A program made the translations under genes and the position numbers. Source: a virus. From it: 64,000 bases of DNA. Below the pieces are notes generated by a model that was not told where the DNA came from, did not search any database, and saw only the letters and a program-made list of their open reading frames with translations. The stretch is from positions 32,001 through 96,000 of IMG/VR virus record IMGVR_UViG_3300043411_002995; one strand, written 5' to 3'. Positions 4,019-58,470 of the stretch are shown here, in pieces (within the stretch, counting starts at the first letter, position 1; every line of letters begins with the position of its first letter).

Positions 4019-4141
<123 letters not shown>

Positions 4142-4163
4142 CCACCCTCACCATCAGCCGCGT

Positions 4164-38534: not shown

Positions 38535-40306
38535 AAGCGGTTCGAGCTGATGTCGGCGGCGAGCTTGCAGTAGACCAGCGAGTGCAGCCCGTCGTCGGGC
38601 TGGTCGATCGGGTGGTCGTAGTTCATCGTGCGCGTGCGCTCGTTGTACTCGATGTACTCGGCGAGGATGTCCTTGCCGAAGGACTCGAACTCGGCCCACT
38701 CGGGGAGGATGAACTTCTTCTGCTTGAAGCCGAGGAAGGTGTCGGCGAGGACGGCGTTGCGGTTGATGATGAACTTGTGGGCCTCAGGGTCGTACTTCTT
38801 CCGCTCGCCGAGGCTGGTGGAGTAGGCGAACTGCATGACGCCGGTGCGGCCGCGGGCCTTGAAGAGGCGGCTGTTGACGCCCCAGCCGTGGCCCCAGTCG
38901 GCGCCGAGGACCTCGACACCCCAGTGGCCGCAGATGTTGAGCACGTCGGGGACGATGATCTCGGGATCGATGTCCTTGCCGGTGTAGCGCTTCCAGAGGA
39001 AGGGCCAGAAGAGCTCGTCGTTGACGTAGGCCCCGAGCGTGAGCACGGTCCACGACGCGAACTTCTTCCGCCCCTTCTCGGCCGAGCCCTCCTGGCGTCC
39101 TTCGCCCCAGTCGATCCCGCCGAAGATGCGGAGGCCGTGCATCTTCGAGTTCTTGGTGTGGATGATCTTGCGCGTCTCGCGCGTGGGGATCTGCTTGTCG
39201 GGGTAGCAGCACTTCTGCAGGTCCATCCGCGTCACGGGGGCGGACGCGGTGTCGTACGAGAAGCCGAGGATCTCGTTCTGGAACTTGTTCTCGGGCCACT
39301 TCTCGTAGGGGAGGACGATCTCCTTCCGCCAGGCGTTCTCCCCCTGCTTCCAGGGGACCATCAGCTGGGAGATGTGGTAGCCGACGTAGTACTCGCCGGG
39401 GCAGAAGGTGACCCACTGACCCTGGGAGGCGTCGAGGGCCTTGCCGCAGTTGGAGCAGATCAGGCCGGTCTTGCCGATGTTCCGCTCGTCGAGGAAGTTC
39501 CAGTAGCTCCCCGCCTCGCCGCTCTTGCAGTCGCAGGGGACGAGCCACTCGTTCTGCGTGGACCACTGCCAGTACTCCTCGAGGGTGTTGGAGTGGGTCA
39601 GCGGCGTGCCGGTGATCATCTCCGAGCCCTGGACGCCGGCGGAAAGCAACGAGGCCGACAGCGACTGGCTGATGACCTTGATGTTGTCCTTGAGCAAGTC
39701 CTGGGCTTCGTCGAAGAACACGCGCGACGCCGGGATGCCGCGGGCGCGGGCGGCGGTCAGGTACGCCGCGCGCAAGAAGATGTACGACCCGTTCATCAGG
39801 GTCTTCTCGAAGACCTGATCGATGACGCCCTTGCCGAGGTACAGGTTCTTCAGGAAGGGCGAGTCGTAGAGGGTCGGCCGCAGCTTCTCGTTCGAGTACT
39901 GCCGGGTCTGTTGGTGCGACGGCGAGACGTAGAGCGTGCGCCAGTGGGGGTGGAGCACGGCCTCGAGGATCTGGAGGCAGCAGACCGTCGTCGACTTCGC
40001 GACCTGGCGCGAGGTCTTCATGACCAGCTGGCTGTCCTGGTCGTTGTAGATCGGGATCAGGAAGGCGTGGTTGTCGAGCCGGAGCGGCTTGCCGAGGTGG
40101 TAGAGGATCGCCTGGGCGATGTCGGATCGGCGCCCGTGGAACGTGGGGATGCCGCCCTCGGACTTCGCGGCGAACTCCTTCAGCTGCGGCGCCCACTTGT
40201 AGGCCGCGTTCCAGTTGATGTCCCGGATCATCGCCGGGCGCGCTTCCCCCTTGCCCTCGAAGTCGAAGGGGTCGTCCTCGAGGACGCCATCGGCTTCGTC
40301 CAGCAC
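38531..40306 (-). CDS. terL: Terminase large subunit
   Basis: MKTSRQVAKST (Walker A), VFFDEAQD (Walker B), ITGTP, GGIDWG and DDGLHS nuclease motifs; GTG 40306 with AAGGAG RBS. Confidence 0.9.
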   Translation of the reverse strand: MLDEADGVLEDDPFDFEGKGEARPAMIRDINWNAAYKWAPQLKEFAAKSEGGIPTFHGRRSDIAQAILYHLGKPLRLDNHAFLIPIYNDQDSQLVMKTSRQVAKSTTVCCLQILEAVLHPHWRTLYVSPSHQQTRQYSNEKLRPTLYDSPFLKNLYLGKGVIDQVFEKTLMNGSYIFLRAAYLTAARARGIPASRVFFDEAQDLLKDNIKVISQSLSASLLSAGVQGSEMITGTPLTHSNTLEEYWQWSTQNEWLVPCDCKSGEAGSYWNFLDERNIGKTGLICSNCGKALDASQGQWVTFCPGEYYVGYHISQLMVPWKQGENAWRKEIVLPYEKWPENKFQNEILGFSYDTASAPVTRMDLQKCCYPDKQIPTRETRKIIHTKNSKMHGLRIFGGIDWGEGRQEGSAEKGRKKFASWTVLTLGAYVNDELFWPFLWKRYTGKDIDPEIIVPDVLNICGHWGVEVLGADWGHGWGVNSRLFKARGRTGVMQFAYSTSLGERKKYDPEAHKFIINRNAVLADTFLGFKQKKFILPEWAEFESFGKDILAEYIEYNERTRTMNYDHPIDQPDDGLHSLVYCKLAADISSNRF

Positions 40307-41202
40307 TAGGACTCCTTCTTGTCGGCGGTCTTCTTCGTGGGAACCGCGACCTGGCCGGCCAGCTGCGCCAGGGAGATGTGGGAGGACTTCTCGGGCTTCA
40401 CCGAGAAGAGCCCCTGGAAGTCGGCGGTGCTGGGGGTGCCGTCGCTCTTCGGCACGCCGAGCCCGGCGGTCTTCTTGACGCTGAGCGCGCGCAGGGTGAG
40501 CTCGGCCCACCGCATGGCGCCAGCGAGCTCGGGTTGGGGGGTGTCCATCGCCAGCTTGAACTGCTGGTACGTCTTGTTGATGATCGTGTTGACGATCTGC
40601 TCGTCGCTGTGGACCGACGCGACGCCGAGCATGTCCCGCACCTCCTCCGCGGTGGGCGAGGCGACGCCGAAGGCGACGTAGCTGCGCTCCTCCTGGGAGA
40701 TGAGCTTCTTGTAGAAGTCGTCCCAGGCCTTGCGGCTGAGCAGCTTGACGTCCCAGTAGATGTGCCGGTAGGTGCTCAGGGCGTCGTTGCTGAGCTCGAT
40801 CCCGTAGTGCTCGAAGAGGAGCTTCTGGATCTCGCCGGCGCTGGCGCGCGAGAGCAGCAGGCAGCCCAGGATGGCGCGCGTGTGGACGTTCGTGAAGAGC
40901 CGGAAGGCCAGGTCGGCGTGGGGCGGCGCGGCCGCGCGGCCGAACTCGCGCTGCATCCGCCAGAGGTCACCGACGCCCTCGGCGTCGGCCCAGGCGAGCA
41001 CTCCCTCCAGGTCGGTGATCTCGGTGTCGGTGCCGTCGATGAACGCGCCGACCGACGTCGGCGCGGTGTCGCGGAGGTGCTGGCGGCAGTCGGCGAGCCA
41101 CAGGTCGCCGACGCGCGGCAGCTCGTAGCGCTCAAGCGTCGAGTTGATCTCGATCTTGCGCGAGACGAGGAACCGGAGGAATCGCTCGTAGGGGTACCTC
41201 AC
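40306..41202 (-). CDS. Hypothetical protein, candidate terminase small subunit
   Basis: Translationally coupled directly upstream of terL; helical. Confidence 0.45.
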   Translation of the reverse strand: MRYPYERFLRFLVSRKIEINSTLERYELPRVGDLWLADCRQHLRDTAPTSVGAFIDGTDTEITDLEGVLAWADAEGVGDLWRMQREFGRAAAPPHADLAFRLFTNVHTRAILGCLLLSRASAGEIQKLLFEHYGIELSNDALSTYRHIYWDVKLLSRKAWDDFYKKLISQEERSYVAFGVASPTAEEVRDMLGVASVHSDEQIVNTIINKTYQQFKLAMDTPQPELAGAMRWAELTLRALSVKKTAGLGVPKSDGTPSTADFQGLFSVKPEKSSHISLAQLAGQVAVPTKKTADKKES

Positions 41203-41208
41203 GCGAGC

Positions 41209-43389
41209 TCATCGAGCCATCCCGATGGGCTGGCCGTCTCGCAGGAGGCGGCCCCCCACGTGTCGGGGCGCCACCGCGGCCGCGGTCTTGGTCTTCTGTT
41301 CCTCGAGCATCCTCAGGCGGCTGAGGCCATCGATGACGCGCTGCAGGTGCCCGAGCGCCGAGCGCACCGCCTCTTCCGGGATGTCGTCCATCCCGAGCCG
41401 GCTCGCCAGCAGCAGGTTCGCCAGCATGTGGCTGGTCTCCCAGAGCAGCGGCTTGACCGAGGCGAAGCGGGCGATGTTCTCCTCGTTGACGAACCCCAGG
41501 GACAGGACCGAGTCAACGGTCTGCGCGTCCTCGAGGTTGGCGGCGATCTTGAGCAGCTCGCTGAATGGCGCACGCATGCTGGCCACGACCATCTGGCGCA
41601 TGGGGCTGGCGACCTTCTCGGCCCGGCCCGGCAGATCCCGCGTCCGCAGGTGGTGGAGCTGCAGCTCGAGGCGATCGCGGACGCCATCGAGCACCTGCGC
41701 GCGCTTCTCCCCGGGCAGGCCCCAGGTGGCGAGCAGGAAGTCGGCCTCGTGCCGCGGCAGCGAGGCGAAGTCGAAGGCCGCCTTGACCATCTTGGCGTTG
41801 CCGCGGATGGGCGTCTGGCGGCACGCCGCGTACTTCTCGAGGCGGCCACCCCGGAAGATGTAGCGCCCGTTGGCGGCCGCCACCTTCACCGGCTGGGTGT
41901 CGAGCCACGAGGCGGTGATCCGCTTGAAGTCGTCGGGCGCCTCCGACACCGGGCACAGCCGCGGCATGCGGATGAACGACATCTTGGCCGAGACGATGTA
42001 GTTCGCCTTCGGGCCCAGCAGCGGTCGCATCTCCGGCGACTTGTTGGTGTCGGAGAGCCGGACGATCCCGTCGACCGTCGGCGAGATGATCAGGTTGATG
42101 ATGTTGCCCTTGTAGTCGACCGCCGCGATCGCGCGGAGGTTCTTGTAGACCGTCACCCCGGTGACCTGGAAGGGCACGGTCGCGAGGACGTCCTTCCCGT
42201 CGCGGTAGACCAGGGTGCCCATCTTGCCCGGCTCGGGCCGGTCGGCCTGCAGGCTGGTGTCGGGGTCGTCGGGCAGCGGGATGCCGGCGAAGCGCGACTG
42301 GATGGAGGCCAGGGCCTTGCCGAGGAAGAGCTTGGTGTCGGCCTTCCCGCCCTCGAACGTGACCACGTTGGGGATGACCCAACCCTTGGCCATGACGCCG
42401 TCCCGATCGCGCACGCCGTAGCGGCCGTACTCGTCGATCTGCTTGACGGTGCGGTCGTCGCTGCGCGGGTCGAAGACGAACGGGTTCTTGTGCACGCCCA
42501 GCTCGCCGGGCGGTCCCTCCATGTCCTTGCCGTAGACGGTCGCCGGCGGGTCGAGGGTGAAGTGGCCGACCTGGTCGGCGACGGTCAGTGGGTCCTTCTC
42601 GTAGTTCTGGAGCTCGGCCTTCCGCAGCTCGAGGAGCGAGCGGATGCCCTGCCGGTTGGTCGTGATGATGACCGGGTCGAAGACCTCGTCCGAGGAGGTG
42701 TAGAGCCGGTAGACGTCGGGGCCGTCCTTCTTGACGGTGAAGACCGCCTGCGCGCGCTCCTTGTTGAGCTCGTCCTGCTCGGTCACCGCCGGCGTCTCCG
42801 CCGCGTACTTCTTCAGGACGTCGAAGGTCTTGCGGCGGTAGAAGCCACCGAGCAGCGTCGGCTGCTCCGCCACGGCCTGCTTGAACAGGCGGAGGTCGTC
42901 GGCGCCCAGGGTGCCGCCGAGGAGGTCCACCATCGACAGCGGCGCGGAGTAGGAGTACTTGCCGCCCAGGGGCGGGTTGCGGCTGTCGGCGAAGGTGTCG
43001 TCCGCCATGCTCGGCGGCGGCGTCGCCGATGCCACGCCCGCGCCCAGGCTGTTCTGGTAGAAGATCTTCGCCAGGTTGTCGTCCGTGAGCGGGTAGAGCT
43101 TCCCGCTCTCGAAGAACAGGTCGAGCGGCGCCATGTGCCACGACTTGATGATGATCGGGACGCCGATCGACGACCCGTCGTTGCCCGCCTTGGCGATCGC
43201 CGTGCCGTAGCCGTAGCCCTTCTCGTCGTCGAGGTCCTGGAAGACGACCGTGACGGTGACGCCCAGGTCCTTCGGGAGCTTCTCCGCGACCATCGCGGAG
43301 ATCTCCTGCTGCCACTCGCGGACGTTGTCCGAGAGCTTCTTGTACTGGGTCCGGCGGAACATCGGATCGTCGGAGAACAGGTTGTCCAT
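41209..43389 (-). CDS. Large putative virion protein (726 aa)
   Basis: Long ORF with GGAG RBS; KYA, KAA, KVA, KIA, KTA sites in the C-terminal part. Confidence 0.7.
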   Translation of the reverse strand: MDNLFSDDPMFRRTQYKKLSDNVREWQQEISAMVAEKLPKDLGVTVTVVFQDLDDEKGYGYGTAIAKAGNDGSSIGVPIIIKSWHMAPLDLFFESGKLYPLTDDNLAKIFYQNSLGAGVASATPPPSMADDTFADSRNPPLGGKYSYSAPLSMVDLLGGTLGADDLRLFKQAVAEQPTLLGGFYRRKTFDVLKKYAAETPAVTEQDELNKERAQAVFTVKKDGPDVYRLYTSSDEVFDPVIITTNRQGIRSLLELRKAELQNYEKDPLTVADQVGHFTLDPPATVYGKDMEGPPGELGVHKNPFVFDPRSDDRTVKQIDEYGRYGVRDRDGVMAKGWVIPNVVTFEGGKADTKLFLGKALASIQSRFAGIPLPDDPDTSLQADRPEPGKMGTLVYRDGKDVLATVPFQVTGVTVYKNLRAIAAVDYKGNIINLIISPTVDGIVRLSDTNKSPEMRPLLGPKANYIVSAKMSFIRMPRLCPVSEAPDDFKRITASWLDTQPVKVAAANGRYIFRGGRLEKYAACRQTPIRGNAKMVKAAFDFASLPRHEADFLLATWGLPGEKRAQVLDGVRDRLELQLHHLRTRDLPGRAEKVASPMRQMVVASMRAPFSELLKIAANLEDAQTVDSVLSLGFVNEENIARFASVKPLLWETSHMLANLLLASRLGMDDIPEEAVRSALGHLQRVIDGLSRLRMLEEQKTKTAAAVAPRHVGGRLLRDGQPIGMAR

Positions 43390-46427: not shown

Positions 46428-46476
46428 ACGGCGCACGGGGCGGTTGGCTCCCAACCCCTGCGCCGTTTTTTTAGCC
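46428..46476 (+). terminator. Intrinsic terminator (at convergent gene ends)
   Basis: ACGGCGCA...TGCGCCGT outer stem, GGTTGG/CCAACC inner stem, T-tract then AGCC. Confidence 0.8.
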
Positions 46477-47574
46477 TGAGGGCGTCGCGAGCCGCGAGCC
46501 GCGAGCCGGGTTGTAGAGCGACTCGACCATGTCCTTGTAGAAGGCGGTCTTGCTCGGCGGCTTCGCCTGGGCGCGCTCCTTCGCCGGCCCGCCGACCTGC
46601 CCAGGACCGATGCTCTTCGGCTTGGGCGGGCTGGTCCCCATGCGCCAGGCCGAGCTCGCGCTCGAGCGCAAGGCCCCCGGTGCCTTGACCTCGGCGCCGG
46701 CCGCCGCCGCCCCGAGCTTCTCCTCCTGCGCTTCGAGCTCGCCCGCCCGCCGCTTCGCCGCCGCCCCTTCCCTCAGCGCCTCGACCAGCCGCTTGGCCAG
46801 GATGGTCGCCAGGACCGGCGCCGCCGCCGCCGCGACGTAGGTGCCGAAGGACGGGGCGAGCTCCTTCAGTGCGCGCATGGTGCCGTAGCCGCTGTGGCGA
46901 GCCCCCTGCAACGCCTTGTAGGACGCCCGCGCCTCCTCGATGAGTTCGGGGGCGGTGGTGGCGGCCACCAGCGCGGGGGCGTGGTCGTAGACGAACCGCC
47001 GGACCCGCTCCCCCTCCTGGGGCTCCGAGATCGTGCTGGCCGCGAGCCCCGCCCGAACCAGGTGGCCGATGGTGGACCCCGTGCCGAGCGTCTTGCCCAT
47101 CGACTGGAGGGCCCGCCGCAGGTCGTGGCTGCCGGCGATCGGCGAGGCGTGGCCGATCTCGTGGAACGCCTGTGGGACCGACGACCGGTTGAGCCCGATG
47201 TGGGGGGTGACGTCGCCGACGGGCTCGCCGGCGATGCGCATGAGCAGGCTGCGGAGCGGGCCGGGGCGGTCCATGAAGTAGCCGGACTCGAACCCCGGCC
47301 CACCGGCGATGATGGGGACGGTGACGCCGCTCTTGCGGGCGAAGTCGGCGATTGCCTCCGCCTCGGCGCGCGTGAACTTCGAGAGCCGCTTCAGCGGCGT
47401 GCCGGTGTCGTCGTCGAGCGGCACGCCGGACATGAGCAGCTTCGCGAGCCCGTGCGGAGCGTCGCTCGTGAGCGGAGAGATCACGCGAGGAAGCCCTTCG
47501 TACGCGGCCGCGGCCGCGAGCGCTGGCGCGACGCCGAGCCCCCCACCGTCTTCCTGGTCCCGATCGTCGGACAT
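46471..47574 (-). CDS. Zincin-like protein, paralog of 32794..34281
   Basis: AFHEIGHA, downstream IEEARAS, shared DHAPALVAAT and LAPSFGTY blocks; start overlaps the RNAP stop. Confidence 0.65.
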   Translation of the reverse strand: MSDDRDQEDGGGLGVAPALAAAAAYEGLPRVISPLTSDAPHGLAKLLMSGVPLDDDTGTPLKRLSKFTRAEAEAIADFARKSGVTVPIIAGGPGFESGYFMDRPGPLRSLLMRIAGEPVGDVTPHIGLNRSSVPQAFHEIGHASPIAGSHDLRRALQSMGKTLGTGSTIGHLVRAGLAASTISEPQEGERVRRFVYDHAPALVAATTAPELIEEARASYKALQGARHSGYGTMRALKELAPSFGTYVAAAAAPVLATILAKRLVEALREGAAAKRRAGELEAQEEKLGAAAAGAEVKAPGALRSSASSAWRMGTSPPKPKSIGPGQVGGPAKERAQAKPPSKTAFYKDMVESLYNPARGSRLATPSG

Positions 47575-50500
47575 CAGTAGACGCCTTCCTTCCTGGAACG
47601 ACCCTGCGGGGCATCACCGAACTCGGCGCCGTAGGCGAAGGCCGGGACCGGTGAGTACCCGTGGAGGTCTGACTCGCTCATGGTGGCAGCGCCTTCGATG
47701 AGGCCCCTGGCCAGCTCACGATACCCCATCTGCCCCATCCAGTCGTCGCGGAGGAGGGGTACCCGCTGGATGCCGGCGAGGAAGGGTTCGTGGACGACCC
47801 GCTTCGGGCCCACGCCGATCGTCTTCTTCCCGCGGCGCTCCAAGACCGCCTTCATCGTCTCGTCGAAGGTCTCGCCCTTGGTAGCGCCGGGCACATCGTC
47901 CTCGTGCACGACATGCCCGACGGCTTCCTCGAGAGGCAGGTCACCGACCTTCTTGTTGTTGTAGTCGTTGACGACGGTCCACGACGCCACGTCACCCGGC
48001 AGGTAGGGGCCATCGCCAGGATCCAACACCCGCGTGGTGTTCCCCGCCGCGCGCACGACGGTCTCGATCGCCCGCCGCTTCAGCTTCACACCCTGGCCGT
48101 CGAAGGCCTTGTGGATCTCCTCGACGACGTAGTTCATCGCAGGGAGCATGCCCTTGAGGCGAACGAGGTCCTGCGGCTGCGCGATGCCCTTCGACAGGAT
48201 GTCACCACGCTTCACCTCGGACCCGACCCGGACGCGATCGCTGTCCCAGAGCCCCTGCTCGACGAAGACCGGCTCCTTCGAACCGCGGATGAAGATGTTC
48301 GTGCCGCCGCCGCCGGGCACGTCCTCGATCCGGTCGACCTTGCCGTCGGCCTCGGCCAAGGCCGCGCGGCCGCGCTTGATCTGGTGCAGCTTGAAGAGCT
48401 TGTCGATCGCGGCGTACCCATCGAGGACGCCGCGCGTGCCCGAGACGCCGCCCTGGTGGAAGGTGCGCATCGTCATCTGGGTCAGCGGCTCGGACATCGC
48501 CTGACCGGAGATCGCCCCGACGTTGTCGCCGATCGCCGGCAGCTTGCCGTTCTCGGTGATGCCGTAGCTCTTGGCGCTGATGCCGTGGGGCGTCGGGTCG
48601 GTCAACGGCGACATCACCCACAGCGTCTTCTGCTTGCGGTCGCGCAGGGTGTTCAGCAGCGCCGCGGTGACCTGGTCGCCGGCGTGGGCGATGACCGTCC
48701 CGCCGATGCGGATGTCCTTCGACAGGAAGCGGTCCTCGAGGTCGTTCGACCGGTTGTCGACCGGCAGCTCGATGCCTTCCTGCGGCCCCGAGTCGTGCCG
48801 CGAGACCACCTGGGTCACCGAGGTGGCCATGATGTCCTTGTTGAAGGCGCCGGGCTCGGAGGTCTGCATCTGCTTGTCCACCGCGGCGGCCCGCGCGCCG
48901 TAGAGGGTCGCCCAGTAGTCGGACAGCGGCAGCCCCTCGGCGAACGAGCGCATCACCGGCGCGAGCTGGGCGTTGCCCCGGTGGTCGTCGACCATGAACG
49001 GCGCCGAGACGATCTGCTTGAGCTGGTTGCGGTTGCCGCGCGCGCCCGACCGCACCATCAGGTCGAAGTTGTTGTCCTGCTCGGGCAGGCGGACCTTGAG
49101 CATCGCGTTGAGCTCGTCGTTGGCCGCCGAGATGAGCTGCTCGCCGCTCGCACGCCCCTCGGGGGTGTCGAGCTTCAGCCCCAAGAGCCCCTTCCGGGTG
49201 CGCTCGAAGATCGCCTTCTTCTCGGGCAGGTCGGGGAGCAGGTCCTTCAGGCTCACGGTGAACCCGGTCTTGTAGGTGTGGAGGTCCCCCATCTTCTTGA
49301 GCTTGTCGACGACCCCGCCGTGGTCCTTCGGCAGCACGCGCGCGAGGTCGCGCATCAGCTCGTCGAGCCCCTTGCTGTCGAGCTCGCGGTCCGCGAACTT
49401 CGTCTGCAGCTCGGGTGGCAGCACCTGCAGCAACTCGGGCTTGTACTTCGGGTCGCGCGACATCTGGTACAGCCCCAGCGCCGCCTCGTTCTGCGGCTTG
49501 ATCATGATGCCGCCGGTGCCCGGGTTGAAGAGGTTCCGCGACGGCATCATCCGGTACGCCTCCTCGATCGCGTCCTCGAGGATGGGCACGTGGACGTTCA
49601 TGGCGTCGCCGTCGAAGTCGGCGTTGAAGCCCTTCACGACGAGCGGCGGGATCTTGATCGCCCTCCCATCGGTCATCTGCGGCGTGAAGCCCATCACCGA
49701 GAACTTGTGGAGCGAGGGGGCGCGGTTGAGCAGCACCGGGCGCGAGGCCATCTCGGCCTGCAGCGCCGATAGCGCGATGGGGGATCGCTTGTCGATCTCC
49801 TCCTCCGCGGCGAGCGGCTTCATGCCCGAGTGGTTCACCAAGCGCCGGGTCACGAACGGGCGGAAGAGCGTCCAGGACATCTCCTCGGGGAGTCCGACCT
49901 CGTCGACGCCGAGCTTGGGCTCGGGGATGATGGTGCCGCGGCCGACCAGGTTCTGTCGCCGGCGCAGCACCTCGTACTGGAAGTAGCCGGTCTTCGCCGG
50001 CTTGCCCTTGACCTGCTCGAGCACGCCCTTGGGCCGGCGGGCCTCGGGGTAGAAGGCGATCGGCTTGCCGATGCCCGAGAGCGCCTGCATGCCCTTGTAG
50101 AGGTCCTCGCGGAGCGGCGCGCTCACCGAGTCGGGGATGAACGGGATGTCGTTCTGCCACTTCAGCTCGTTGTTCACGAGCGCAAGGTCGCGGTAGAGCG
50201 TGTTGAGCCCGGGCGTCGACAACGACCCATCCTCCATCTCGACGACGGGGCGGAAGTTGGGGGGGATGACGGGGAGCTTCGTCTGGACGTAGGCGTCCTC
50301 GGGGCGGATCTTGAGCTTCTTGAGCGCGGAGAGGTACTTCAGGCTCTTGTTCGCCTTGTCGAGCTCCTCGGGGGTCCGTGCCTGCTTGGCCTCCTCGGTC
50401 CACTGGGAGATCTGGTCGTCGACGTTGATCTTGCCGAGCAGCGCCTTCACGGCGGCGCCGCTGGTGACGGTGACGGGATCCTTCTCGTCGCCGAACTCCC

Positions 50501-53500
50501 CGGTCTCGGGGTTCACCCAGAGCTTGCCGGTGACCAGGCCACTGAACTGCTGCTCGTTGAGCCCGGTGAGCTGTCGGATCGGCTTCTCGAAGATGGGGTT
50601 CGGGACGGGCTCGGCCAGATCGATGTGCCCCCAGCGGTCGCCCTTGCGGCCGCCGAAGACCGTGCGGTCGAGCAACCCGCCGCGCTCCTCCTTCAGGTCC
50701 TTGGCGTTGACGAAGACCGGATCGACGACCGCGCCGTTGCTGATCTTGTCGACGTCGGCGTCCGTCATCGGCTGCAGGACCATCTTCGAGCCGTTCCGCT
50801 TCACGTTGATGCCGGCGGCCTGGAGGTAGCCCTCGAACTTCTTGTAGGCGAAGGTCGGGGTCGGCGGCGGCTTCATCAGCCCTGAGCCGGCGCCGCCGGC
50901 GAGCCAGGTCCAGAACGGCTCGTTCTTGGACGCCTTGTAGGTCGCCATCTCGCGCAGGTTCGCGCGCGCGCCATGCGACAGCATCGAGTAGAAGGTGATG
51001 AGGTCGAGCGCCTTGGCGCCTTCCTCGCCGCCGCTCACGGGGTTCCCGTTGGAGTCGTACTTGCCCTCGCCGCGCGCCGAGTACTGGGTAGTCGCCTGCT
51101 TTCCGAGCTTCAGGATGTACTGCGGCCCGGTCATGACCTGCCCCAACGCCTCCTTGCTGTGGGGGTCGTAGAGCGTCTCGGTGTCGGAGACGCCGGCCTT
51201 GGCCAGCTCGTCGCTGACCCGCTGGGCGTACCCGTCCTTGCTCGTGATCGCGTTGTCGACGATGTAGGGCTTGCCCCGGTGCTCGGCGAGCTTGGCGGCC
51301 GCCGTCTCGAGCATCTGGGACGGGTTCACGCGGCTGGTGATGCCGTGCGGGTTGAGGAGGATATCGATCGGCTCGTGCGTGCCGTCGGGCTTGATCGAGT
51401 ACGGCGCCTCCGCATCCTCGATGATCTTCGTGATGATGCCCTTGCCGCCGTGACGGTTCGTGACCTTGTCGCCGATCTGCGCTGGCTCGCGCGTGCGGAC
51501 GTAGACCTTCACCTTCTTGCCCGTGCGGACGACGTCGACGACCTCGCCGTCGTAGTCCTCGGTCCACTCCTCGGCGACCCCCCGCTTCGGGGGCATGTTG
51601 GCGCCGAGGCGACGCATCGCGAGGTAGTCGGGGTCGTTCTTGTTGTCCTTGGTGCCGACCCAGAGCGGGTCGCCCTTGCGGACGATCTGTCCCTTCCGGA
51701 TGACCCCATCCTTGTCGAGCTTGGCCGAGGTCTCGTCGTCGATCGCCCCGGGCTTCCACGCCCGGTACTGGTCGAGCGAGAGGGTCGTCTGCTCGTTGAG
51801 CATCGTCGAGTACTGGTGCATGTGCTCGCTGGTGAGCTTTTTGCGCGCGCTCTCGGTGATGACGATGCCGTCCTCGAAGTTGTAGCCCTTCCAGGGGATG
51901 TAGGCGGCCTTGAGGTTGGTGCCGATCGCCATCACCCCGTCGGAGGTGAAGTTGGTGTCGGCCAGGGTCTCGCCCTTCTTGACGGCCTGCCCCTCGACCA
52001 CGCGCACCGTCGAGTCGACGAACGCCTTGTTGTTCAGCGGGAGGTTGCTGAACAGCGGATGCTCGTTCTCGCCGTCCTTGGTCTTGACCACGATCTTGTT
52101 CTTCGAGATCGACTGGACGACGCCGTCCTCGAGGGCGGCGGTGGAGAAACTCCCGCCGATCGCCCGCTCGATCGTGCCGCCCCCGACCTTCACCTGCACG
52201 AGCGGCGCCTCGCGGTTGACCAGCGGGATCGCCTGCTCGAGCATCTTGGTCGCCATCTGCGCCCGGACGCCCATGGCGGCGGGCAAGAAGGGGATGGTGT
52301 TCGAGGCGATCGAGAAGGCCTGCCGTGGTGAGTGCAGCACCACGTCGACCTGGTCGGCATCGACCAGCCGGCGCTCCCCGTTGACGTGGGCCAGCACCTT
52401 CTTGTCGATCGCCACGCCGTCCTCGAACTGGTCGGAGAAGGAGAGCGTGAGGTTCGCGGCCTCGGCCGCGGTGATCTTCCGGTTCTTCTTCGTCTTGACG
52501 TCGTAGACGGTGGTCTCGAGCTCGTCGCCGCGCTTGCTCACGCCCACCGGCAGGTGCATCGTCAGGCCGATGTGGCCGGAGTCGGGCGTGTGGATCGGAT
52601 CGATGAACCCGAGCTGCGACGGGTGGACGGCGCGCTCCTCCGCCCGGACGTTCTGCGCGTTGGACCCCGCGCCGCCCTCGCCCATGATGGTGACCTTGGT
52701 CATCCCGTTGAGCATGTGGATCGGGTTCGTCTGATCGGGCACGTGGGCGTGCCCGCCGGTCTGCGTGAAGAACGACGAGAGCGTCGAGGAGAGCTGGTTC
52801 GAGCTCACGAGCTGCCCGACCTGCGTCGGGGGCTGCCGCTGGTTGTTCAGCTTCCGCAGGATCTTCCTGCGGTACTCGTTGAGGAACGGCTGGATCTCGC
52901 CGTTGTCCTTGACGAGACGCTCGCGCATCAGGTCCGAGACGGACATGATCTTCTTGAACTCGAGGGACTGGCGATCGTCGGGCGCCCGCTTCCCAGCGGC
53001 GGCGGCGATCAGCTCCTTGGAGCTGGCGACGATGGCCTCGGGGGAGACCTTGTCGAAGGCCTGGCCCACCGTCTTCTTGGTGACCTCGGGGCGGAGCTCG
53101 GTCTGGTCGAAGTAGGCCAGGAGCGCCTTGCCGGCCTCGTCAGGCGTCTCGAACCGCGGGCGCGTGTCACCCGCCCGCAGCCGCTTCAGGTCGGCGGCCT
53201 TGTCGGCGGCGAAGTACTCGGCGGCCTTCTTGACGGACTCGTTCGCCTTCTTCTTCGAGGCGGCCTTGTTCGCGCTGAGGATCTGGTCGCCCCAGGCCCG
53301 CGCCAGGGTTGAGTCGGCCACGCCCATGGCCGAGAGGATGGGGTAGAGCGCCGGGCCGCTCTTGTCCTCGGCGCCGCCGGCGCGGCGGGCGAGGCGGAAG
53401 ACCGTGGAGGCGGGGTTGAACTCGACGTCGAAGGCGCGGCCGGCGACGTTGATCTCGGCCTTCGTCTCGCCGTTCTTCTTCTCGGTGACGTAGATGCCCG

Positions 53501-53867
53501 GCTTGCGGCGCAGCTGGCTCTGCACCTGGTAGTGCTTGCCGTCGACGATGAAACTGCCGAAGTTGGTGGCCTTGGGCAGGGTCGCGATCTTCATGCGCTT
53601 CTGCGTGGAGATCACCTTCCCGGTCTTGCGGTCGGTGAGCTCGAGGTTCGCGTAGACCGGGACGCCCCAGGTCTTGTCCTTCCGCACGGCCTCGCGCTGG
53701 CCCTCGGCGTCCCCGGGATCAGCCGAGTCGTCGACCCAGACCTCCTTGGCCCGGAGGCGGAGGCCGGTCTGCTCGGCCTGGACGTCGAGGGCCTTGGTGA
53801 AGGCCTCCGCGATGTCCTTCTTCACCTTCTCGAACTGGCTCTGGTAGTCGAAGCTCTCCATGGTCAC
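47574..53867 (-). CDS. DNA-directed RNA polymerase, single-chain beta-beta' fusion (phage-encoded)
   Basis: Beta motifs HPSQLGFIDPIHTPD, GYNFEDGI, GDKVTNRHGGKG, LLNPHGITSRVN; beta' motifs LPVIPPNFRP, LLNRAPSLH, NADFDGD (49605-49625), SGARG, SEPLTQMTMRTFH; start GTG 53867 or ATG 53861. Confidence 0.95.
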   Translation of the reverse strand: MTMESFDYQSQFEKVKKDIAEAFTKALDVQAEQTGLRLRAKEVWVDDSADPGDAEGQREAVRKDKTWGVPVYANLELTDRKTGKVISTQKRMKIATLPKATNFGSFIVDGKHYQVQSQLRRKPGIYVTEKKNGETKAEINVAGRAFDVEFNPASTVFRLARRAGGAEDKSGPALYPILSAMGVADSTLARAWGDQILSANKAASKKKANESVKKAAEYFAADKAADLKRLRAGDTRPRFETPDEAGKALLAYFDQTELRPEVTKKTVGQAFDKVSPEAIVASSKELIAAAAGKRAPDDRQSLEFKKIMSVSDLMRERLVKDNGEIQPFLNEYRRKILRKLNNQRQPPTQVGQLVSSNQLSSTLSSFFTQTGGHAHVPDQTNPIHMLNGMTKVTIMGEGGAGSNAQNVRAEERAVHPSQLGFIDPIHTPDSGHIGLTMHLPVGVSKRGDELETTVYDVKTKKNRKITAAEAANLTLSFSDQFEDGVAIDKKVLAHVNGERRLVDADQVDVVLHSPRQAFSIASNTIPFLPAAMGVRAQMATKMLEQAIPLVNREAPLVQVKVGGGTIERAIGGSFSTAALEDGVVQSISKNKIVVKTKDGENEHPLFSNLPLNNKAFVDSTVRVVEGQAVKKGETLADTNFTSDGVMAIGTNLKAAYIPWKGYNFEDGIVITESARKKLTSEHMHQYSTMLNEQTTLSLDQYRAWKPGAIDDETSAKLDKDGVIRKGQIVRKGDPLWVGTKDNKNDPDYLAMRRLGANMPPKRGVAEEWTEDYDGEVVDVVRTGKKVKVYVRTREPAQIGDKVTNRHGGKGIITKIIEDAEAPYSIKPDGTHEPIDILLNPHGITSRVNPSQMLETAAAKLAEHRGKPYIVDNAITSKDGYAQRVSDELAKAGVSDTETLYDPHSKEALGQVMTGPQYILKLGKQATTQYSARGEGKYDSNGNPVSGGEEGAKALDLITFYSMLSHGARANLREMATYKASKNEPFWTWLAGGAGSGLMKPPPTPTFAYKKFEGYLQAAGINVKRNGSKMVLQPMTDADVDKISNGAVVDPVFVNAKDLKEERGGLLDRTVFGGRKGDRWGHIDLAEPVPNPIFEKPIRQLTGLNEQQFSGLVTGKLWVNPETGEFGDEKDPVTVTSGAAVKALLGKINVDDQISQWTEEAKQARTPEELDKANKSLKYLSALKKLKIRPEDAYVQTKLPVIPPNFRPVVEMEDGSLSTPGLNTLYRDLALVNNELKWQNDIPFIPDSVSAPLREDLYKGMQALSGIGKPIAFYPEARRPKGVLEQVKGKPAKTGYFQYEVLRRRQNLVGRGTIIPEPKLGVDEVGLPEEMSWTLFRPFVTRRLVNHSGMKPLAAEEEIDKRSPIALSALQAEMASRPVLLNRAPSLHKFSVMGFTPQMTDGRAIKIPPLVVKGFNADFDGDAMNVHVPILEDAIEEAYRMMPSRNLFNPGTGGIMIKPQNEAALGLYQMSRDPKYKPELLQVLPPELQTKFADRELDSKGLDELMRDLARVLPKDHGGVVDKLKKMGDLHTYKTGFTVSLKDLLPDLPEKKAIFERTRKGLLGLKLDTPEGRASGEQLISAANDELNAMLKVRLPEQDNNFDLMVRSGARGNRNQLKQIVSAPFMVDDHRGNAQLAPVMRSFAEGLPLSDYWATLYGARAAAVDKQMQTSEPGAFNKDIMATSVTQVVSRHDSGPQEGIELPVDNRSNDLEDRFLSKDIRIGGTVIAHAGDQVTAALLNTLRDRKQKTLWVMSPLTDPTPHGISAKSYGITENGKLPAIGDNVGAISGQAMSEPLTQMTMRTFHQGGVSGTRGVLDGYAAIDKLFKLHQIKRGRAALAEADGKVDRIEDVPGGGGTNIFIRGSKEPVFVEQGLWDSDRVRVGSEVKRGDILSKGIAQPQDLVRLKGMLPAMNYVVEEIHKAFDGQGVKLKRRAIETVVRAAGNTTRVLDPGDGPYLPGDVASWTVVNDYNNKKVGDLPLEEAVGHVVHEDDVPGATKGETFDETMKAVLERRGKKTIGVGPKRVVHEPFLAGIQRVPLLRDDWMGQMGYRELARGLIEGAATMSESDLHGYSPVPAFAYGAEFGDAPQGRSRKEGVY

Positions 53868-53879
53868 CTGGTGCCGTCG

Positions 53880-53897
53880 GGCATAAGCCTCGTGAAG
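53880..53897 (+). promoter_or_regulatory. Candidate phage-RNAP promoter motif, copy 6
   Basis: GGCATAAG-N6-GAAG, divergent from and 12 nt from the RNAP start. Confidence 0.65.
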
Positions 53898-56139: not shown

Positions 56140-56437
56140 CGGAGTCTCCTCTGGTACGGGAAGGGGTCTTGGCCCAGTAGTGAACGAGGAGGATGATCTC
56201 CTCGGTCGTCGTGCTGATGTTGCTCCCGCCCTCCATCGTCTCGGTGATGGTCTTCTTGCGAGAGTACTCCTTGATCATGTCGACCTTGATCCCTTCGGAG
56301 AGGTCGTTCATCCGGTTGCGGAGCTCCGCGTAGGCCTCGCGATCCCCCTGCTCGAAGAGGTTGAACTCCTCGCAGTAGAACGTCCCGAGGTTGCGCCCGC
56401 CGACGCCGCCGAAGTTGACGGGGGTAGCCTTCGCCAT
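56093..56437 (-). CDS. Hypothetical protein
   Basis: TGATG overlap with the portal stop. Confidence 0.6.
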   Translation of the reverse strand: MAKATPVNFGGVGGRNLGTFYCEEFNLFEQGDREAYAELRNRMNDLSEGIKVDMIKEYSRKKTITETMEGGSNISTTTEEIILLVHYWAKTPSRTRGDSDEDDEEDRRRIAPAG

Positions 56438-58470
56438 CAGATCGGCCCTCCGTCACGCCGCGGAGGCGCCGCCTGGGGCAGTGGCTTCTGCTGGTCGGCG
56501 ACGTCGCCGGCGGTGGCGCCGGGCGCCATCTGGGACAGGAGCTGCTCGACCAGGCGGGCCATGTTGGGCATCTTCGCGCGCAGCTCGTTGAGGACCTGGA
56601 CGCGCTGGCCCTGGTCCATCTTGGAGATCTTGTTGGCCCACTGCTTGGCGACCCGGGCCGCATCGAGCTGCACGACCTGGCCGCCCTGGCCGCCCACGTC
56701 CGTCCCGCCGGCTTGAGTCCCCGCCTCGCCGGCGACGGCCGCCTGCTGCTGGGATGCCTGTTGCTGGGCCGCCTGCTGCGCCATCTGCTGGTCCTGGGCC
56801 ATCTGCTCGGGCCCTGCGGCAGGCGCCGGCGCGCCGCCCATGGCCGGGTCCTGGGCCTGCCCTGGAGGCAACGCGCCCTGAGGCCCGGCGTTGCCCTGCT
56901 GCTCGTTCTGGGCCTGCCCCTCCATGCCCGGCTGTCCGCCGGCGGACGCGCCCTGGGCCTCCGCGAAGGCTTCCTGGGCGCGGGCCTGGTAGCGGGCCTG
57001 GACGATCGACGACTCTCCCTGGGCCTCGGTCTGGGCCTTCATGGTGATCGCCTGGATGCGGTTCCGCTGCTCCGCCTCCTTCTCGATCATGTTGAGCTCG
57101 TCGTCGTAGTCGAACCCGAGCTCGGTGAGCATCGTGTGGTCCGAGATCTTGTTGGCAGCGTTCAGCTGGATGACGATCTGCTTGCGCTGGATGTCGTCCG
57201 CCATCTTGAACTCGGTGAACCCGATGACGACATCGGGCATCCCGAGGTAGAGGCGCACGCGGTTCTTCGCCCAGTTGACGAAGCGCAGCAGCAGCCGGCG
57301 GTACAAGAGGAAGTGGTTCTCGAGGGTGCGCAGCGAGACGGAGCTGCCCGACCACGAGAGGCCGCCGAAGACGAACTCGAGCGGCACGCCCATGCCGCCG
57401 GTGATCTCCTTGTTCGTCACCTCGATCTCGGGCCCAAGGAGTAGGGCCCGGCCGTCGCCGCCCAAGCGCTCGAACCCGAGCGGTACAGCGACGACCGAGA
57501 CGTAGTTCGGGTCGATGCGCCACTTGCGGATCTCCTCCTGCACCGTGCCCTGCCACGTGGACAGGTTGACGTGCTGGTAGGGGTCCTGCTGGGCGTTCGC
57601 CTGGGGGAAGATGAACTCGAGCGGGAGGATGCGCTGCAGCGCGATCGCCTCCTGCGCGCGGCGCAGGACGTAGAGGTAGAACATCCGCCCCATCGAGTGG
57701 ATGATCAGCGGCTTGCCCCACCCCATGTCCTGCTCGGCCAAGGTCGGGCGCTTGAAGTGGAAGAGGTTCTGGTCCGAGAGCGCGACGTCGCGGCTCAGCT
57801 TCAGCGCCAACAGGAAGACCGCGGGGATGTCGACCAAGATCTCGCGCGACCCTTCCTGGATCGCCTTGCGGATCTTGTTCGGGATCTTGTAGCGGTACTT
57901 CGACCGCCCCGTGATCGGGTTGTAGTGGATGTCGATGTTCTTCGGGTCCCACCGAACGAAGTTGATGCCGGTCCGGTCCTTGATCGGCCTGTCGACGATC
58001 TCCCCGACGACCTCGGCGCGGCAGGCCTGGCAACCGTAGTGGAACTGGAAGTTGCGGAACTTGTAGCTGAACGACTCGTCGGAGAGTCGAGCCATCGACT
58101 TGCAGGCTGGGCAGCGCAGCCACCGCACGAACGGCAGGTTCATCGAGATGAACGCGTTGCCGTAGCAGAAGTAGTCGAGGCCGATCTCGATCAGGAAGGG
58201 CTTGAGGTTGAGCTCGTCCTCGAGGAGGGTCTTCCACCCGTCACGGACGTGCTTCTCGTCGGCGTTGTAGACGAAGTCCGTGACCGGGTACTCGGCGATC
58301 TTGGTGACCACCGACCCGATCATCGGGTCCTTGTAGAAGAAGTACTGGCACCACCGGAAGAGCTCCTTCACGGTCGGCGGCATGTACGTCTGCGCGATGT
58401 CGAAGAACGGGGACGGGTACACCGTCCCCCGTCGCCGATCGAGTCGCCCTTGGAACATGCCGTCGGACAT
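56437..58470 (-). CDS. Portal protein with Q/A/G-rich C-terminal extension
   Basis: LDYFCYGNAF, FHFKR, GWGKPLI, GMGVPLEFVFG, LTELGFD pattern. Confidence 0.8.
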   Translation of the reverse strand: MSDGMFQGRLDRRRGTVYPSPFFDIAQTYMPPTVKELFRWCQYFFYKDPMIGSVVTKIAEYPVTDFVYNADEKHVRDGWKTLLEDELNLKPFLIEIGLDYFCYGNAFISMNLPFVRWLRCPACKSMARLSDESFSYKFRNFQFHYGCQACRAEVVGEIVDRPIKDRTGINFVRWDPKNIDIHYNPITGRSKYRYKIPNKIRKAIQEGSREILVDIPAVFLLALKLSRDVALSDQNLFHFKRPTLAEQDMGWGKPLIIHSMGRMFYLYVLRRAQEAIALQRILPLEFIFPQANAQQDPYQHVNLSTWQGTVQEEIRKWRIDPNYVSVVAVPLGFERLGGDGRALLLGPEIEVTNKEITGGMGVPLEFVFGGLSWSGSSVSLRTLENHFLLYRRLLLRFVNWAKNRVRLYLGMPDVVIGFTEFKMADDIQRKQIVIQLNAANKISDHTMLTELGFDYDDELNMIEKEAEQRNRIQAITMKAQTEAQGESSIVQARYQARAQEAFAEAQGASAGGQPGMEGQAQNEQQGNAGPQGALPPGQAQDPAMGGAPAPAAGPEQMAQDQQMAQQAAQQQASQQQAAVAGEAGTQAGGTDVGGQGGQVVQLDAARVAKQWANKISKMDQGQRVQVLNELRAKMPNMARLVEQLLSQMAPGATAGDVADQQKPLPQAAPPRRDGGPI

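What the first reader, a model, noticed from the sequence alone, without database searches (positions are those of the whole stretch)
47574..53867. Streamlined single-chain beta-beta' RNA polymerase embedded in the virion module
Seen: one uninterrupted 2,097-aa ORF has bacterial-type beta motifs followed by beta' motifs, including an intact NADFDGD and trigger loop. The junction is at about 50766-50830 (EGYLQAAGINVKRNGSKMVLQPMTDADV), where a beta C-terminal-like helix runs into the first beta' strand. No alpha, omega or full sigma gene is in the window. Known: E. coli beta plus beta' is about 2,750 aa; beta-beta' fusions occur in Helicobacter and Wolbachia; phiKZ-type phage RNAPs are split into several chains; crAss-like and YonO single-chain enzymes are far more diverged. 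Inference: this is a minimised, host-derived RNAP, possibly packaged and injected because it lies among structural genes.
Basis: partly seen in the sequence, partly recalled or inferred. Interest (0 to 1): 0.88.

Follow-up and report, generated by a model that had tools for sequence, protein, structure and literature searches.

The report
Cysteine-free single-chain phage RNA polymerase
An uncultured phage from wastewater and freshwater encodes both large subunits of a bacterial-type RNA polymerase as one intact 2,097-residue protein that has lost both zinc sites and every cysteine, and it also encodes its own sigma factor, so it probably runs, and may carry in its particle, a private two-protein transcription machine that I found no bench study of.

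Summary
Window 47574-53867 (-) is one open frame of 2,097 aa, with a complete beta module followed by a complete beta' module. Contigs from three independent studies bridge the junction without gaps. All 80 best IMG/VR relatives have the same single frame.

- The enzyme is not recently host-derived. It sits in a large phage-only clade, at most 25-30% identical to bacterial rpoB/rpoC.
- It is not alone. A sigma-70-family gene lies about 14 kb beyond the window on the same contig and co-occurs with the polymerase across the family.
- No alpha or omega homologue exists, even in four complete related genomes.
- "Streamlined" means loss of lineage-specific inserts plus the beta' N-terminal zinc domain. 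This subclade has also replaced the four Cys of the second zinc site and has 0 Cys in 2,097 residues.

Packaging is plausible but not shown here. The supports are virion proteomics of Salmonella phage Arash, the conserved portal-RNAP-TerL block and a cysteine-poor make-up.

A GGCATAAG promoter-like box, conserved across relatives, heads the opposite-strand genes.

This scan has already found the same family on other DNA. I found no paper describing the fused architecture.

The parts
47574..53867 (-). Single ORF of 2,097 aa (2,095 aa if it starts at ATG 53861): fused beta-beta' RNA polymerase
   Evidence: AlphaFold2 models of the two halves have pLDDT 83.7 and 82.2.
50793..53867 (-). Beta module, residues 1 to about 1025. 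It holds the GYNFEDG motif (51861-51887), the catalytic Lys loop GDK..RHGGKG (51426-51473), a flap-tip-like helix (51603-51635) and the Rif-pocket segment (52671-52772).
   Evidence: The family HMM aligns to E. coli beta 51-220, 421-932, 1048-1129 and 1183-1338. Foldseek gives TM 0.68 to Thermus beta over its whole length.
50751..50834 (-). Beta/beta' junction. The beta C-terminal helix (..YLQAAGINVK) runs with almost no linker into the first beta' strand (..MVLQPMTD..).
   Evidence: The junction columns are conserved at 80% or more across 100 relatives. Independent contigs bridge it.
47577..50792 (-). Beta' module, residues about 1026-2097. It holds the clamp helices (50154-50219), NADFDGD (49605-49625), the bridge helix (48819-48902) and the trigger-loop helix (48447-48506).
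   Evidence: Foldseek gives TM 0.70-0.77 to bacterial beta'.
50625..50657 (-). Site of the deleted beta' N-terminal zinc-binding domain. About 36 residues carrying four Cys in E. coli are replaced by ..GGRKGD..
   Evidence: Read directly from the sequence. The family alignment leaves E. coli beta' 66-150 against 27 profile positions.
48561..48797 (-). Former second zinc site. The four Cys ligands (E. coli beta' C814, C888, C895, C898) are S1693, D1757, S1764 and S1767.
   Evidence: Of 100 relatives, 91 keep CCCC. This protein and its six closest relatives have SDSS.
56437..58470 (-). Portal gene, upstream on the same strand
   Evidence: PHROG portal hits. 29% identical to the Arash portal gp204. 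Upstream of the RNAP in 57 of 80 relatives.
38531..40510 (-). Large terminase gene, downstream on the same strand
   Evidence: phrog_675, E 2e-51. Downstream of the RNAP in 50 of 80 relatives.
41209..43389 (-). 726-aa gene of unknown function, the most faithful neighbour of the RNAP gene
   Evidence: Downstream on the same strand in 72 of 80 relatives. No Pfam, PHROG, NCBIfam, PDB or Atlas match.
46471..47574 (-). 367-aa cysteine-free gene whose ATG overlaps the RNAP stop codon (TGATG)
   Evidence: Homologues lie at the same place in 11 of the closer relatives.
53880..53887 (+). GGCATAAG box 13 nt beyond the RNAP start, pointing away from it. It is one of 7 copies in the window, all on the + strand: 37057, 37519, 44863, 53880, 54224, 61274 and 62285.
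   Evidence: 7 found, 0.44 expected, and 0 of 100 shuffles reach 7. The same box sits opposite the RNAP start in relatives.

Best explanation
This is the intact gene for the catalytic core of a phage-encoded, bacterial-type (two-barrel, 'multisubunit') RNA polymerase made as one polypeptide. It belongs to an uncultured tailed phage of 68% GC and about 157 kb.

Shown here: beta and beta' are joined end to end where their termini meet in cellular enzymes. All catalytic elements are present. The protein belongs to a large phage-only clade in which the beta-beta' joint is universal.

Inferred:
1. The covalent joint replaces the alpha-dimer assembly platform. No alpha or omega gene exists in the family.
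2. The core is directed to promoters by the phage's own 282-aa group-3-like sigma factor, through the retained beta' clamp helices and the beta flap tip.
3. The holoenzyme reads the conserved GGCATAAG-type promoters that head the non-structural genes on the opposite strand.
4. The enzyme should be insensitive to rifampicin, because H526, S531 and Q513 of the pocket are changed.
5. It is made late, from within the portal-to-terminase block. It is probably packed into the head and delivered with the DNA, which would explain the lack of cysteine and of zinc sites.

My odds: real fused active RNAP 0.97; works with the phage sigma 0.7; packaged and injected 0.5.
For: Fused and intact.

Fold. pLDDT is 83.7 and 82.2, and TM is 0.68-0.77 to bacterial beta and beta' over their full length.

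Not a chimera: contigs from three studies bridge the junction; 80 of 80 relatives fused.

Phage clade: a beta'N tree in which fused forms and Arash-type forms together sit 99* apart from 47 bacterial rows.

No alpha or omega: for this contig, and for Arash, D69 and two 100%-complete IMG/VR genomes.

One RNAP and one sigma per genome.

Sigma:
- The Arash gp10 homologue is 36% identical, E 1e-19.
- The family profile hits RpoS and SigA structures at E 3e-14 over regions 2-4.

Complex model of sigma with beta' residues 1020-1489:
- Score 0.79, best control 0.00. That mark was reached by 58 of 80 solved complexes and 2 of 110 mismatched pairs.
- The runs agree in at least 65% of contacts, and the partner pLDDT is at least 68.
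- The interface is the clamp helices (residues 1208-1255) against sigma 82-98 and 129-137.
- The pair resembles solved holoenzymes, so this pass shows likeness, not binding.

Promoter box. The exact 8-mer is kept, always opposite to the RNAP gene, in relatives with 35-62% identical RNAPs and 42-65% GC.

Packaging:
- In Arash, Gp206 is the most detected protein of purified particles (3,516 spectra). Gp216 (1,210 spectra) and sigma Gp10 (467 spectra) are also found (PMC10585845).
- The portal-RNAP-TerL order is conserved.
- The protein has 0 Cys in 2,097 residues against 1.17% in the other proteins, P about 2e-11. Sigma also has 0 Cys. The - strand block proteins are Cys-poor and the + strand proteins Cys-rich.
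Against: No activity, subunit make-up or virion content has been measured for this phage or for any fully fused member.

The Arash preparation yielded 116 'virion' proteins, including ribonucleotide reductases and RNA ligases. Its authors themselves allow carry-over of abundant proteins.

The contig is only about 71% complete, so a very divergent alpha- or omega-like protein, or a second factor, could be missed. Host alpha and omega could also be recruited.

The sigma could instead serve the host polymerase.

Rifampicin insensitivity is inferred from three residue changes only.

The sigma's own Pfam score is below the gathering threshold (20.9 against 25.3 bits).
Confidence: 0.7

Rival explanations
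1. Non-virion polymerase. The fused enzyme is made only inside the infected cell and transcribes middle or late genes. The host polymerase, perhaps with the phage sigma, starts the infection, and nothing is injected.
For: The gene lies in what looks like a late block. The Arash particle proteome is broad enough (116 proteins, with metabolic enzymes) to suggest contamination. Only one RNAP gene exists per genome, whereas phiKZ-type phages use separate virion and non-virion sets (PMC7824862).
Against: Gp206 tops the Arash spectrum counts, above the major capsid protein, and sigma is present too. The GGCATAAG box heads the non-structural, presumably early genes, and is conserved across phages with GC from 42 to 65%, which presumably infect different hosts; that is hard to square with recognition by host factors alone. 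The protein is cysteine-free like the virion-block proteins.
Confidence: 0.3
2. Sigma-independent core. The fused enzyme finds promoters by itself or with an unrelated phage factor, as phiKZ and AR9 non-virion RNAPs do. The phage sigma instead redirects the host polymerase.
For: Many large phages without their own RNAP encode sigma factors for the host enzyme (PMC7824862). The complex model can pass from likeness to solved holoenzymes alone.
Against: Sigma and the fused RNAP co-occur in 5 of 5 genomes and on at least 13 shared contigs. The sigma docking surfaces (clamp helices, flap tip) are retained although other surface elements were lost. Sigma is found with the RNAP in Arash particles.
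Confidence: 0.15
3. Recently captured or contaminating cellular rpoBC, or an assembly or frameshift artefact that joins two genes.
For: Natural beta-beta' fusions exist in some bacteria. The best NCBIfam model is the cellular beta/beta' fusion family.
Against: That model scores 462 bits against a cut-off of 5,372. Identity to bacterial sequences is 25-30%. A 99* branch separates the phage clade from bacteria. The flanks are phage portal, SSB and terminase genes. Independent assemblies bridge the joint, and 80 of 80 relatives are fused.
Confidence: 0.02

Closest known systems
RNA polymerase of Salmonella phage Arash (Gp206 + Gp216, with sigma Gp10; OQ632216, PMC10585845) and of Vibrio phages D69, D148 and D181
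   Same: It belongs to the same phage clade and is 28-32% identical. The beta-beta' joint is the same. Each genome has a homologous sigma, the gene lies beside the portal gene, and no alpha or omega is present. The enzyme and sigma were detected in Arash particles.
   Different: In those phages beta' is cut after the catalytic barrel, giving 1,525 + 606 aa, at about residues 1471-1483 of this protein. Here the chain is continuous. Arash keeps the four Cys of the second zinc site in Gp216, and this protein has none. The Arash paper annotates the genes as 'beta' and 'beta'' and does not discuss the architecture.
mReC, multisubunit-RNAP-encoding Caudovirales (Weinheimer & Aylward 2020, PMC7481178)
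   Same: These are uncultured tailed phages whose beta and beta' are recognisable with cellular profiles and form a clade apart from cells. Several come from the same metagenomes as relatives found here.
   Different: Every mReC entry I read in Supplementary Data 2 (two of its 14 text parts) lists beta (986-1,521 aa) and beta' (887-1,391 aa) as two different proteins. The paper mentions fusion only for crAssphage. Whether the fused family nests inside mReC was not tested, because the mReC sequences were not on hand.
Cellular beta-beta' fusions (Helicobacter and Wolbachia type; NCBIfam NF007172 and NF011417)
   Same: One ORF runs from beta into beta', joined at the same termini.
   Different: The cellular proteins are about 2,840-2,890 aa (profile lengths). 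By my own knowledge they keep both zinc sites and work with alpha2 and omega. This protein scores 462 bits against a cut-off of 5,372.
phiKZ- and AR9-type jumbo-phage multisubunit RNAPs
   Same: They are phage-encoded two-barrel enzymes without alpha or omega. One set is packaged in the virion (PMC7824862).
   Different: Those are split into four or five polypeptides, have no sigma factor, and come as two paralogous sets per genome. Here there is one chain, one sigma and one set.
Single-chain two-barrel phage RNAPs: crAss-like gp66, YonO, and the P23-45 tape-measure-fused virion RNAP (PMC10770324)
   Same: A single polypeptide carries both barrels. Some are virion-borne.
   Different: Those are too diverged for the cellular beta and beta' profiles to detect (PMC7481178). 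This protein matches six Rpb1/Rpb2 Pfam domains, four of them above and two just below their gathering scores, and it aligns over full-length bacterial subunits.

Membership tests
Bacterial RNAP beta (rpoB; TIGR02013, NF001616) | Rpb2 catalytic barrel with the ..NFED.. motif and the two active-site lysines | tested here: met
   PF00562 at E 4e-44. GYNFEDG and GDK..RHGGKG align to E. coli 805-820 and 1060-1080.
Bacterial RNAP beta (rpoB; TIGR02013, NF001616) | Score at or above the curated equivalog cut-off | tested here: not met
   319.6 bits against 896, and 295.9 against 801.
Bacterial RNAP beta' (rpoC; TIGR02386) | NADFDGD, bridge helix and trigger loop | tested here: met
Bacterial RNAP beta' (rpoC; TIGR02386) | N-terminal zinc-binding domain (four Cys) and second zinc site (four Cys) | tested here: not met
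   The domain is deleted. The second site reads S, D, S, S. The whole protein has 0 Cys.
Bacterial RNAP beta' (rpoC; TIGR02386) | Score at or above the curated equivalog cut-off | tested here: not met
   454.6 bits against 963.5.
Cellular beta/beta' fusion (NF007172, NF011417) | Single ORF from beta to beta', and a score at or above the cut-off | tested here: not met
   It is a single ORF, but it scores 462 against 5,372 and 401 against 4,632 bits. It sits in a phage clade.
Arash/D69-type phage RNAP | Beta fused to the N-terminal half of beta', with a homologous sigma in the genome and the portal gene nearby | tested here: met
Arash/D69-type phage RNAP | The C-terminal half of beta' encoded as a separate gene | tested here: not met
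   The frame is continuous through residues 1471-1483.
mReC (PMC7481178) | A tailed-phage contig whose beta and beta' are detectable with cellular profiles and branch apart from cells | tested here: met
mReC (PMC7481178) | Clusters with the published mReC sequences | not tested
All entries read in two of the 14 parts of Supplementary Data 2 have two separate genes.
Sigma-70 family (for the partner protein P0127) | Regions 2, 3 and 4 recognisable | tested here: met
   The family profile hits RpoS and SigA chains at E 3e-14 over positions 90-265. NCBIfam finds SigB/F/G and FliA-like hits, all far below their cut-offs. The protein's own Pfam r3 hit is 20.9 bits against 25.3.
phiKZ/AR9-type phage RNAP | Beta and beta' each split into two or more polypeptides, with no sigma | tested here: not met
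   One chain, and sigma is present.

The most novel reading that the evidence does not exclude
Together with its 282-aa sigma, this protein is a complete two-polypeptide, sigma-dependent transcription machine. It needs no alpha, omega, zinc or cysteine, and it is insensitive to rifampicin. It is packed into the phage head and injected to read the lineage-wide GGCATAAG promoters from the first minute of infection. That would make it the smallest self-sufficient holoenzyme of the cellular RNAP type.
Probability: 0.3. Interest if true: 0.8.

Novelty: new variant of a known kind. Interest (0 to 1): 0.6.

Why it matters
Cellular-type RNA polymerases are thought to need the alpha dimer to assemble, and they carry two structural zinc sites. 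This natural lineage does without alpha, omega and the first zinc domain, and this subclade also does without the second zinc site and any cysteine.

If the enzyme is active with its one sigma, it offers four things:
- a very simple model for assembly and promoter recognition by two-barrel polymerases;
- an orthogonal, possibly rifampicin-proof expression system with a short defined promoter;
- a test of whether virion-borne proteins are selected to be free of cysteine and metal;
- a fully fused architecture not seen among the published mReC entries I read (two of 14 parts of that table), which list only two-gene forms.

Cultured relatives (Arash on Salmonella, D69 on Vibrio) make all of this testable.

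Tried and rejected
Assembly chimera or a stop at the junction: rejected.

Nesting among host rpoBC: rejected. The genome-contig scan depends on six peptide patterns, and it returned only Bacteroidota rpoBC at 25-29% identity. It therefore shows no close cellular relative, but it is not exhaustive.

Alpha and omega: Pfam PF01000, PF01193 and PF01192 found nothing on the contig. PF01000 and PF01192 also found nothing in four complete related genomes. Very divergent analogues cannot be excluded.

Expression: no RNA holder is listed among the public runs that hold this DNA.

Literature: five searches for a description of a fused phage beta-beta' enzyme found none. The library lacks most subscription journals.

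The 726-aa conserved neighbour: no hit in Pfam, PHROGs, NCBIfam, PDB sequences or the ESM Atlas.

A second promoter-like motif for the - strand (structural) genes: k-mer enrichment in intergenic DNA gave nothing beyond GGCATAAG.

tRNA genes: none in the 111.7 kb.

A first try at exact repeated k-mers over the whole genome returned only GC-rich coding words.

Rooting: the tree is a FastTree of one 449-column region with a midpoint root. I do not claim an order of fusion and fission events from it.
Full report
WHAT IS THERE

The window is bases 32001-96000 of a 111,705-bp IMG/VR virus record that CheckV rates about 71% complete. It is 66-73% GC throughout.

The minus-strand frame 47574-53867 is open for 2,097 codons from GTG. 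The public protein cluster starts two codons later, at ATG 53861, giving 2,095 aa. Its GC3 of 0.96 is that of real genes in this genome.

Pfam finds Rpb2 domains 3 and 6 at residues 377-938, followed by Rpb1 domains 1, 2, 4 and 5 at residues 1148-1824. Against solved structures, the two stretches that match best align to bacterial beta' at E about 1e-100.

The quoted junction peptide is at residues 1012-1039, which is 50751-50834.

IS THE FUSION REAL?

Public runs from at least ten further studies (wastewater, activated sludge, bioreactor, freshwater) hold half or more of the sampled words of the junction kilobase; the two best holders, a freshwater and a groundwater run, may be the source sample. 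Contigs from three other studies cover 48894-51022 (1 mismatch), 49771-51961 (12 mismatches) and 50567-51122 (1 mismatch) without a gap.

In the protein collection, hundreds of proteins of 2,000-2,100 aa match end to end at 40-83% identity, on contigs up to 186 kb. All 80 best IMG/VR loci, down to 33% identity, carry beta, beta'N and beta'C in one frame.

The columns around the joint (..P.P...F.Y.KF..YLK..G......G....L.P.TD..) are conserved at 80% or more. The joint is an old, selected feature and not an artefact.

ANATOMY

A family HMM aligned to E. coli beta and beta' shows what is kept and what is lost.

Kept:
- the beta NFED motif and catalytic lysine loop;
- a flap-tip-like helix;
- the beta' clamp helices and lid region;
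- NADFDGD, the bridge helix and the N-terminal trigger-loop helix with M932, R933 and H936 equivalents.

Lost:
- beta SI1 and SI2 and beta' SI3, which are lineage-specific inserts of E. coli;
- E. coli beta' 515-572;
- the beta' N-terminal zinc-binding domain, whose roughly 36-residue Cys loop is replaced by ..GGRKGD...

AlphaFold2 models of residues 1-1130 and 1020-2097 are confident, with pLDDT 83.7 and 82.2. They superpose on full-length Thermus beta (TM 0.68) and on Clostridioides and Bacillus beta' (TM 0.75-0.77).

"Streamlined" therefore means this. The beta module (about 1,025 aa) is as small as the smallest bacterial beta. The beta' module (about 1,070 aa) is somewhat smaller than the shortest bacterial beta' chains that matched here (about 1,150-1,200 aa).

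A ZINC-FREE, CYSTEINE-FREE SUBCLADE

The protein has no cysteine at all. The other predicted proteins of the contig hold 1.17% Cys, so the chance of none in 2,097 residues is about 2e-11.

Of 100 intein-free relatives, 91 have Cys at the four ligand positions of the second beta' zinc site, and most of them have exactly four Cys in all. This protein and its six closest relatives (78-83% identical) have S, D, S, S there. One further relative (65% identical) has H, S, Y, D.

The family as a whole avoids cysteine, and this branch has given up the last zinc site. The sigma factor also has 0 Cys. The minus-strand block proteins are Cys-poor, while the plus-strand replication-type proteins hold 5-14 Cys each.

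ACCESSORY SUBUNITS

No alpha (PF01000, PF01193) or omega (PF01192) homologue is on the contig. PF01000 and PF01192 also find nothing in Arash, D69 and two IMG/VR genomes rated 100% complete, while the controls ring in 14 of 14 cellular genomes.

A homologue of the Arash sigma Gp10 lies at G000:C1:110283-111131 (-), about 14 kb beyond the window's end. A profile of its family matches RpoS and SigA chains at E 3e-14 over regions 2.3 to 4. NCBIfam places it nearest to SigB/F/G and FliA/WhiG, far below their cut-offs.

It is present once in each of 5 related genomes, and each of those also has one RNAP locus.

A complex model of sigma with beta' residues 1020-1489 scored 0.79 against a best control of 0.00.
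- That mark was reached by 58 of 80 solved complexes and 2 of 110 mismatched pairs.
- The runs agree in at least 65% of contacts, and the partner pLDDT is at least 68.
- The clamp helices (residues 1208-1255) lie against sigma 82-98 and 129-137.
- Solved holoenzymes look the same, so this shows that the docking surfaces are preserved, not that the two proteins bind.

RELATIVES AND ORIGIN

The nearest cultured relatives are Vibrio phages D69, D148 and D181 and Salmonella phage Arash, at about 30% identity. In these, beta is fused to the N-terminal half of beta' (1,525-1,527 aa) and the rest of beta' is a separate gene of 606-609 aa. The break falls at residues 1471-1483 of this protein.

A FastTree of the beta' N-terminal region (119 rows, 449 columns) puts all fused and Arash-type forms on one side of a 99* branch and 47 bacterial beta' on the other. 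The query sits deep among fused forms. The Arash-type forms make one group.

A pattern-limited scan of one genome for each of 185,579 species found only ordinary rpoBC at 25-29% identity. NCBIfam equivalog cut-offs for rpoB, rpoC and the cellular rpoBC fusion are all missed by a wide margin. So the enzyme is not a recent host capture.

The published "mReC" phages (PMC7481178) are the nearest concept in print. Every entry I read in their Supplementary Data 2, in two of its 14 text parts, lists beta and beta' as two different proteins. The text mentions fusion only for crAssphage. I found no paper that describes the fused architecture.

Other agents of this scan have reported the same family on other genomes.

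CONTEXT AND THE PACKAGING QUESTION

On the same strand lie the portal gene (56437-58470) upstream and, downstream, a 726-aa gene of unknown function (41209-43389) and the large terminase (38531-40510).

This order is conserved. The portal is upstream in 57 of 80 relatives, the 726-aa gene is downstream in 72 of 80, and TerL is downstream in 50 of 80. The next gene (46471-47574, 367 aa, no Cys) overlaps the RNAP stop codon as TGATG.

In Arash, mass spectrometry of purified particles detected Gp206 more often than any other protein (3,516 spectra). It also found Gp216 (1,210 spectra) and sigma Gp10 (467 spectra). However, 116 proteins were found in all, including metabolic enzymes, and the authors allow carry-over (PMC10585845).

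Packaging is therefore a fair hypothesis. It is supported by analogy, by position and by the cysteine-free make-up, and nothing measured here shows it.

A CONSERVED PROMOTER-LIKE BOX

GGCATAAG occurs 7 times in the window, always on the plus strand. The expectation is 0.44, and 0 of 100 shuffles reach 7. Across the contig it occurs 9 times.

Seven of the nine copies lie between genes, five of them 24-105 nt before the called start of a plus-strand gene such as SSB. Each is preceded 12-14 nt upstream by a TCAC-like element. It is the most enriched intergenic word.

One copy sits 13 nt beyond the RNAP start codon and points the other way. Relatives with RNAPs only 35-62% identical and with 42-65% GC keep the exact 8-mer. 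In nearly all of them every copy is on the strand opposite to the RNAP gene, and often one sits at that same spot.

A word kept exactly across phages of such different base composition, which presumably infect different hosts, argues for a phage-encoded reader, most simply the sigma-RNAP pair. Earlier agents reached the same reading in other genomes and noted a likeness to sigma-28 promoters.

RIFAMPICIN POCKET

Anchored on the conserved D516-Q-x-N-P, the phage residues at E. coli positions 513, 526, 529, 531 and 533 are H, G, K, T and M in place of Q, H, R, S and L. By my own knowledge, positions 526 and 531 are the main resistance hot spots. Insensitivity is an inference from these changes.

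VERDICT

The reading is partly right on three points: a real, compact single chain, no alpha or omega, and a plausible virion enzyme. It is partly wrong on two: the enzyme is not host-derived, and it is not without a sigma.

The thing is a member of a very large lineage that I found undescribed in print and for which no biochemistry exists. It is related to the Arash/D69 enzymes and probably to mReC.

The particular interest of this copy is the complete loss of zinc ligands and cysteine.

Noticed in passing
window 37057, 37519, 44863, 53880, 54224, 61274, 62285 (+); also G000:C1:22200 and 29546: The exact 8-mer GGCATAAG occurs only on the + strand, and the intergenic copies carry a TCAC-like element 12-14 nt upstream. 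Seven of the nine copies lie between genes, five of them 24-105 nt before the called start of a + strand (non-structural) gene. The copy at 61274 lies inside a - strand gene, antisense. The same word is kept, nearly always opposite to the RNAP gene, in relatives of 42-65% GC. It is a candidate promoter of the phage holoenzyme.
   Followed up: partly
window 12692-13150 (+): A small ORF with a Cys-rich N-terminus and a C-terminal helix-turn-helix that weakly matches sigma-70 region 4 (17.4 bits, E 4e-4, below the cut-off). It could be a minimal sigma-4-like factor or a regulator.
   Followed up: no
window 41209-43389 (-): This 726-aa gene lies downstream of the RNAP gene in 72 of 80 relatives, more faithfully than the portal or terminase genes. 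It has no match in Pfam, PHROGs, NCBIfam, PDB sequences or the ESM Atlas.
   Followed up: partly
window 46471-47574 (-): The start codon of this 367-aa cysteine-free gene overlaps the RNAP stop codon (TGATG), which suggests translational coupling. Another first-stage note flags an HExxH motif in it.
   Followed up: no
relatives P0010, P0039, P0052, P0058, P0060 and others; L119, L126, L133, L161: Many relatives carry one or more inteins (Pfam LAGLIDADG_3 and Intein_splicing) inside the fused RNAP gene, stretching it to 2,400-3,200 aa. This copy has none.
   Followed up: no
whole contig G000: Cysteine content differs by strand. Most large proteins of the - strand (virion-side) block have 0-3 Cys, and several of 346-760 aa have none. 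The + strand replication-type proteins mostly have 5-14 Cys.
   Followed up: partly
relative P0006: A relative 65% identical has H, S, Y, D at the four ligand positions of the second zinc site. This is possibly a second, independent loss of the site.
   Followed up: no
window 4019-4150 (+): A short, very acidic ORF contains a tandem GAGACC repeat (Glu-Thr repeats followed by Asp/Glu runs), just before a terminator-like hairpin with a T-run.
   Followed up: no
window 50300-51300: Near-identical DNA is held by runs from wastewater, activated sludge, bioreactor, groundwater and freshwater metagenomes of at least ten studies between 2017 and 2025, so the phage is widespread in engineered and fresh waters. 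No tRNA gene occurs in the 111.7 kb.
   Followed up: partly
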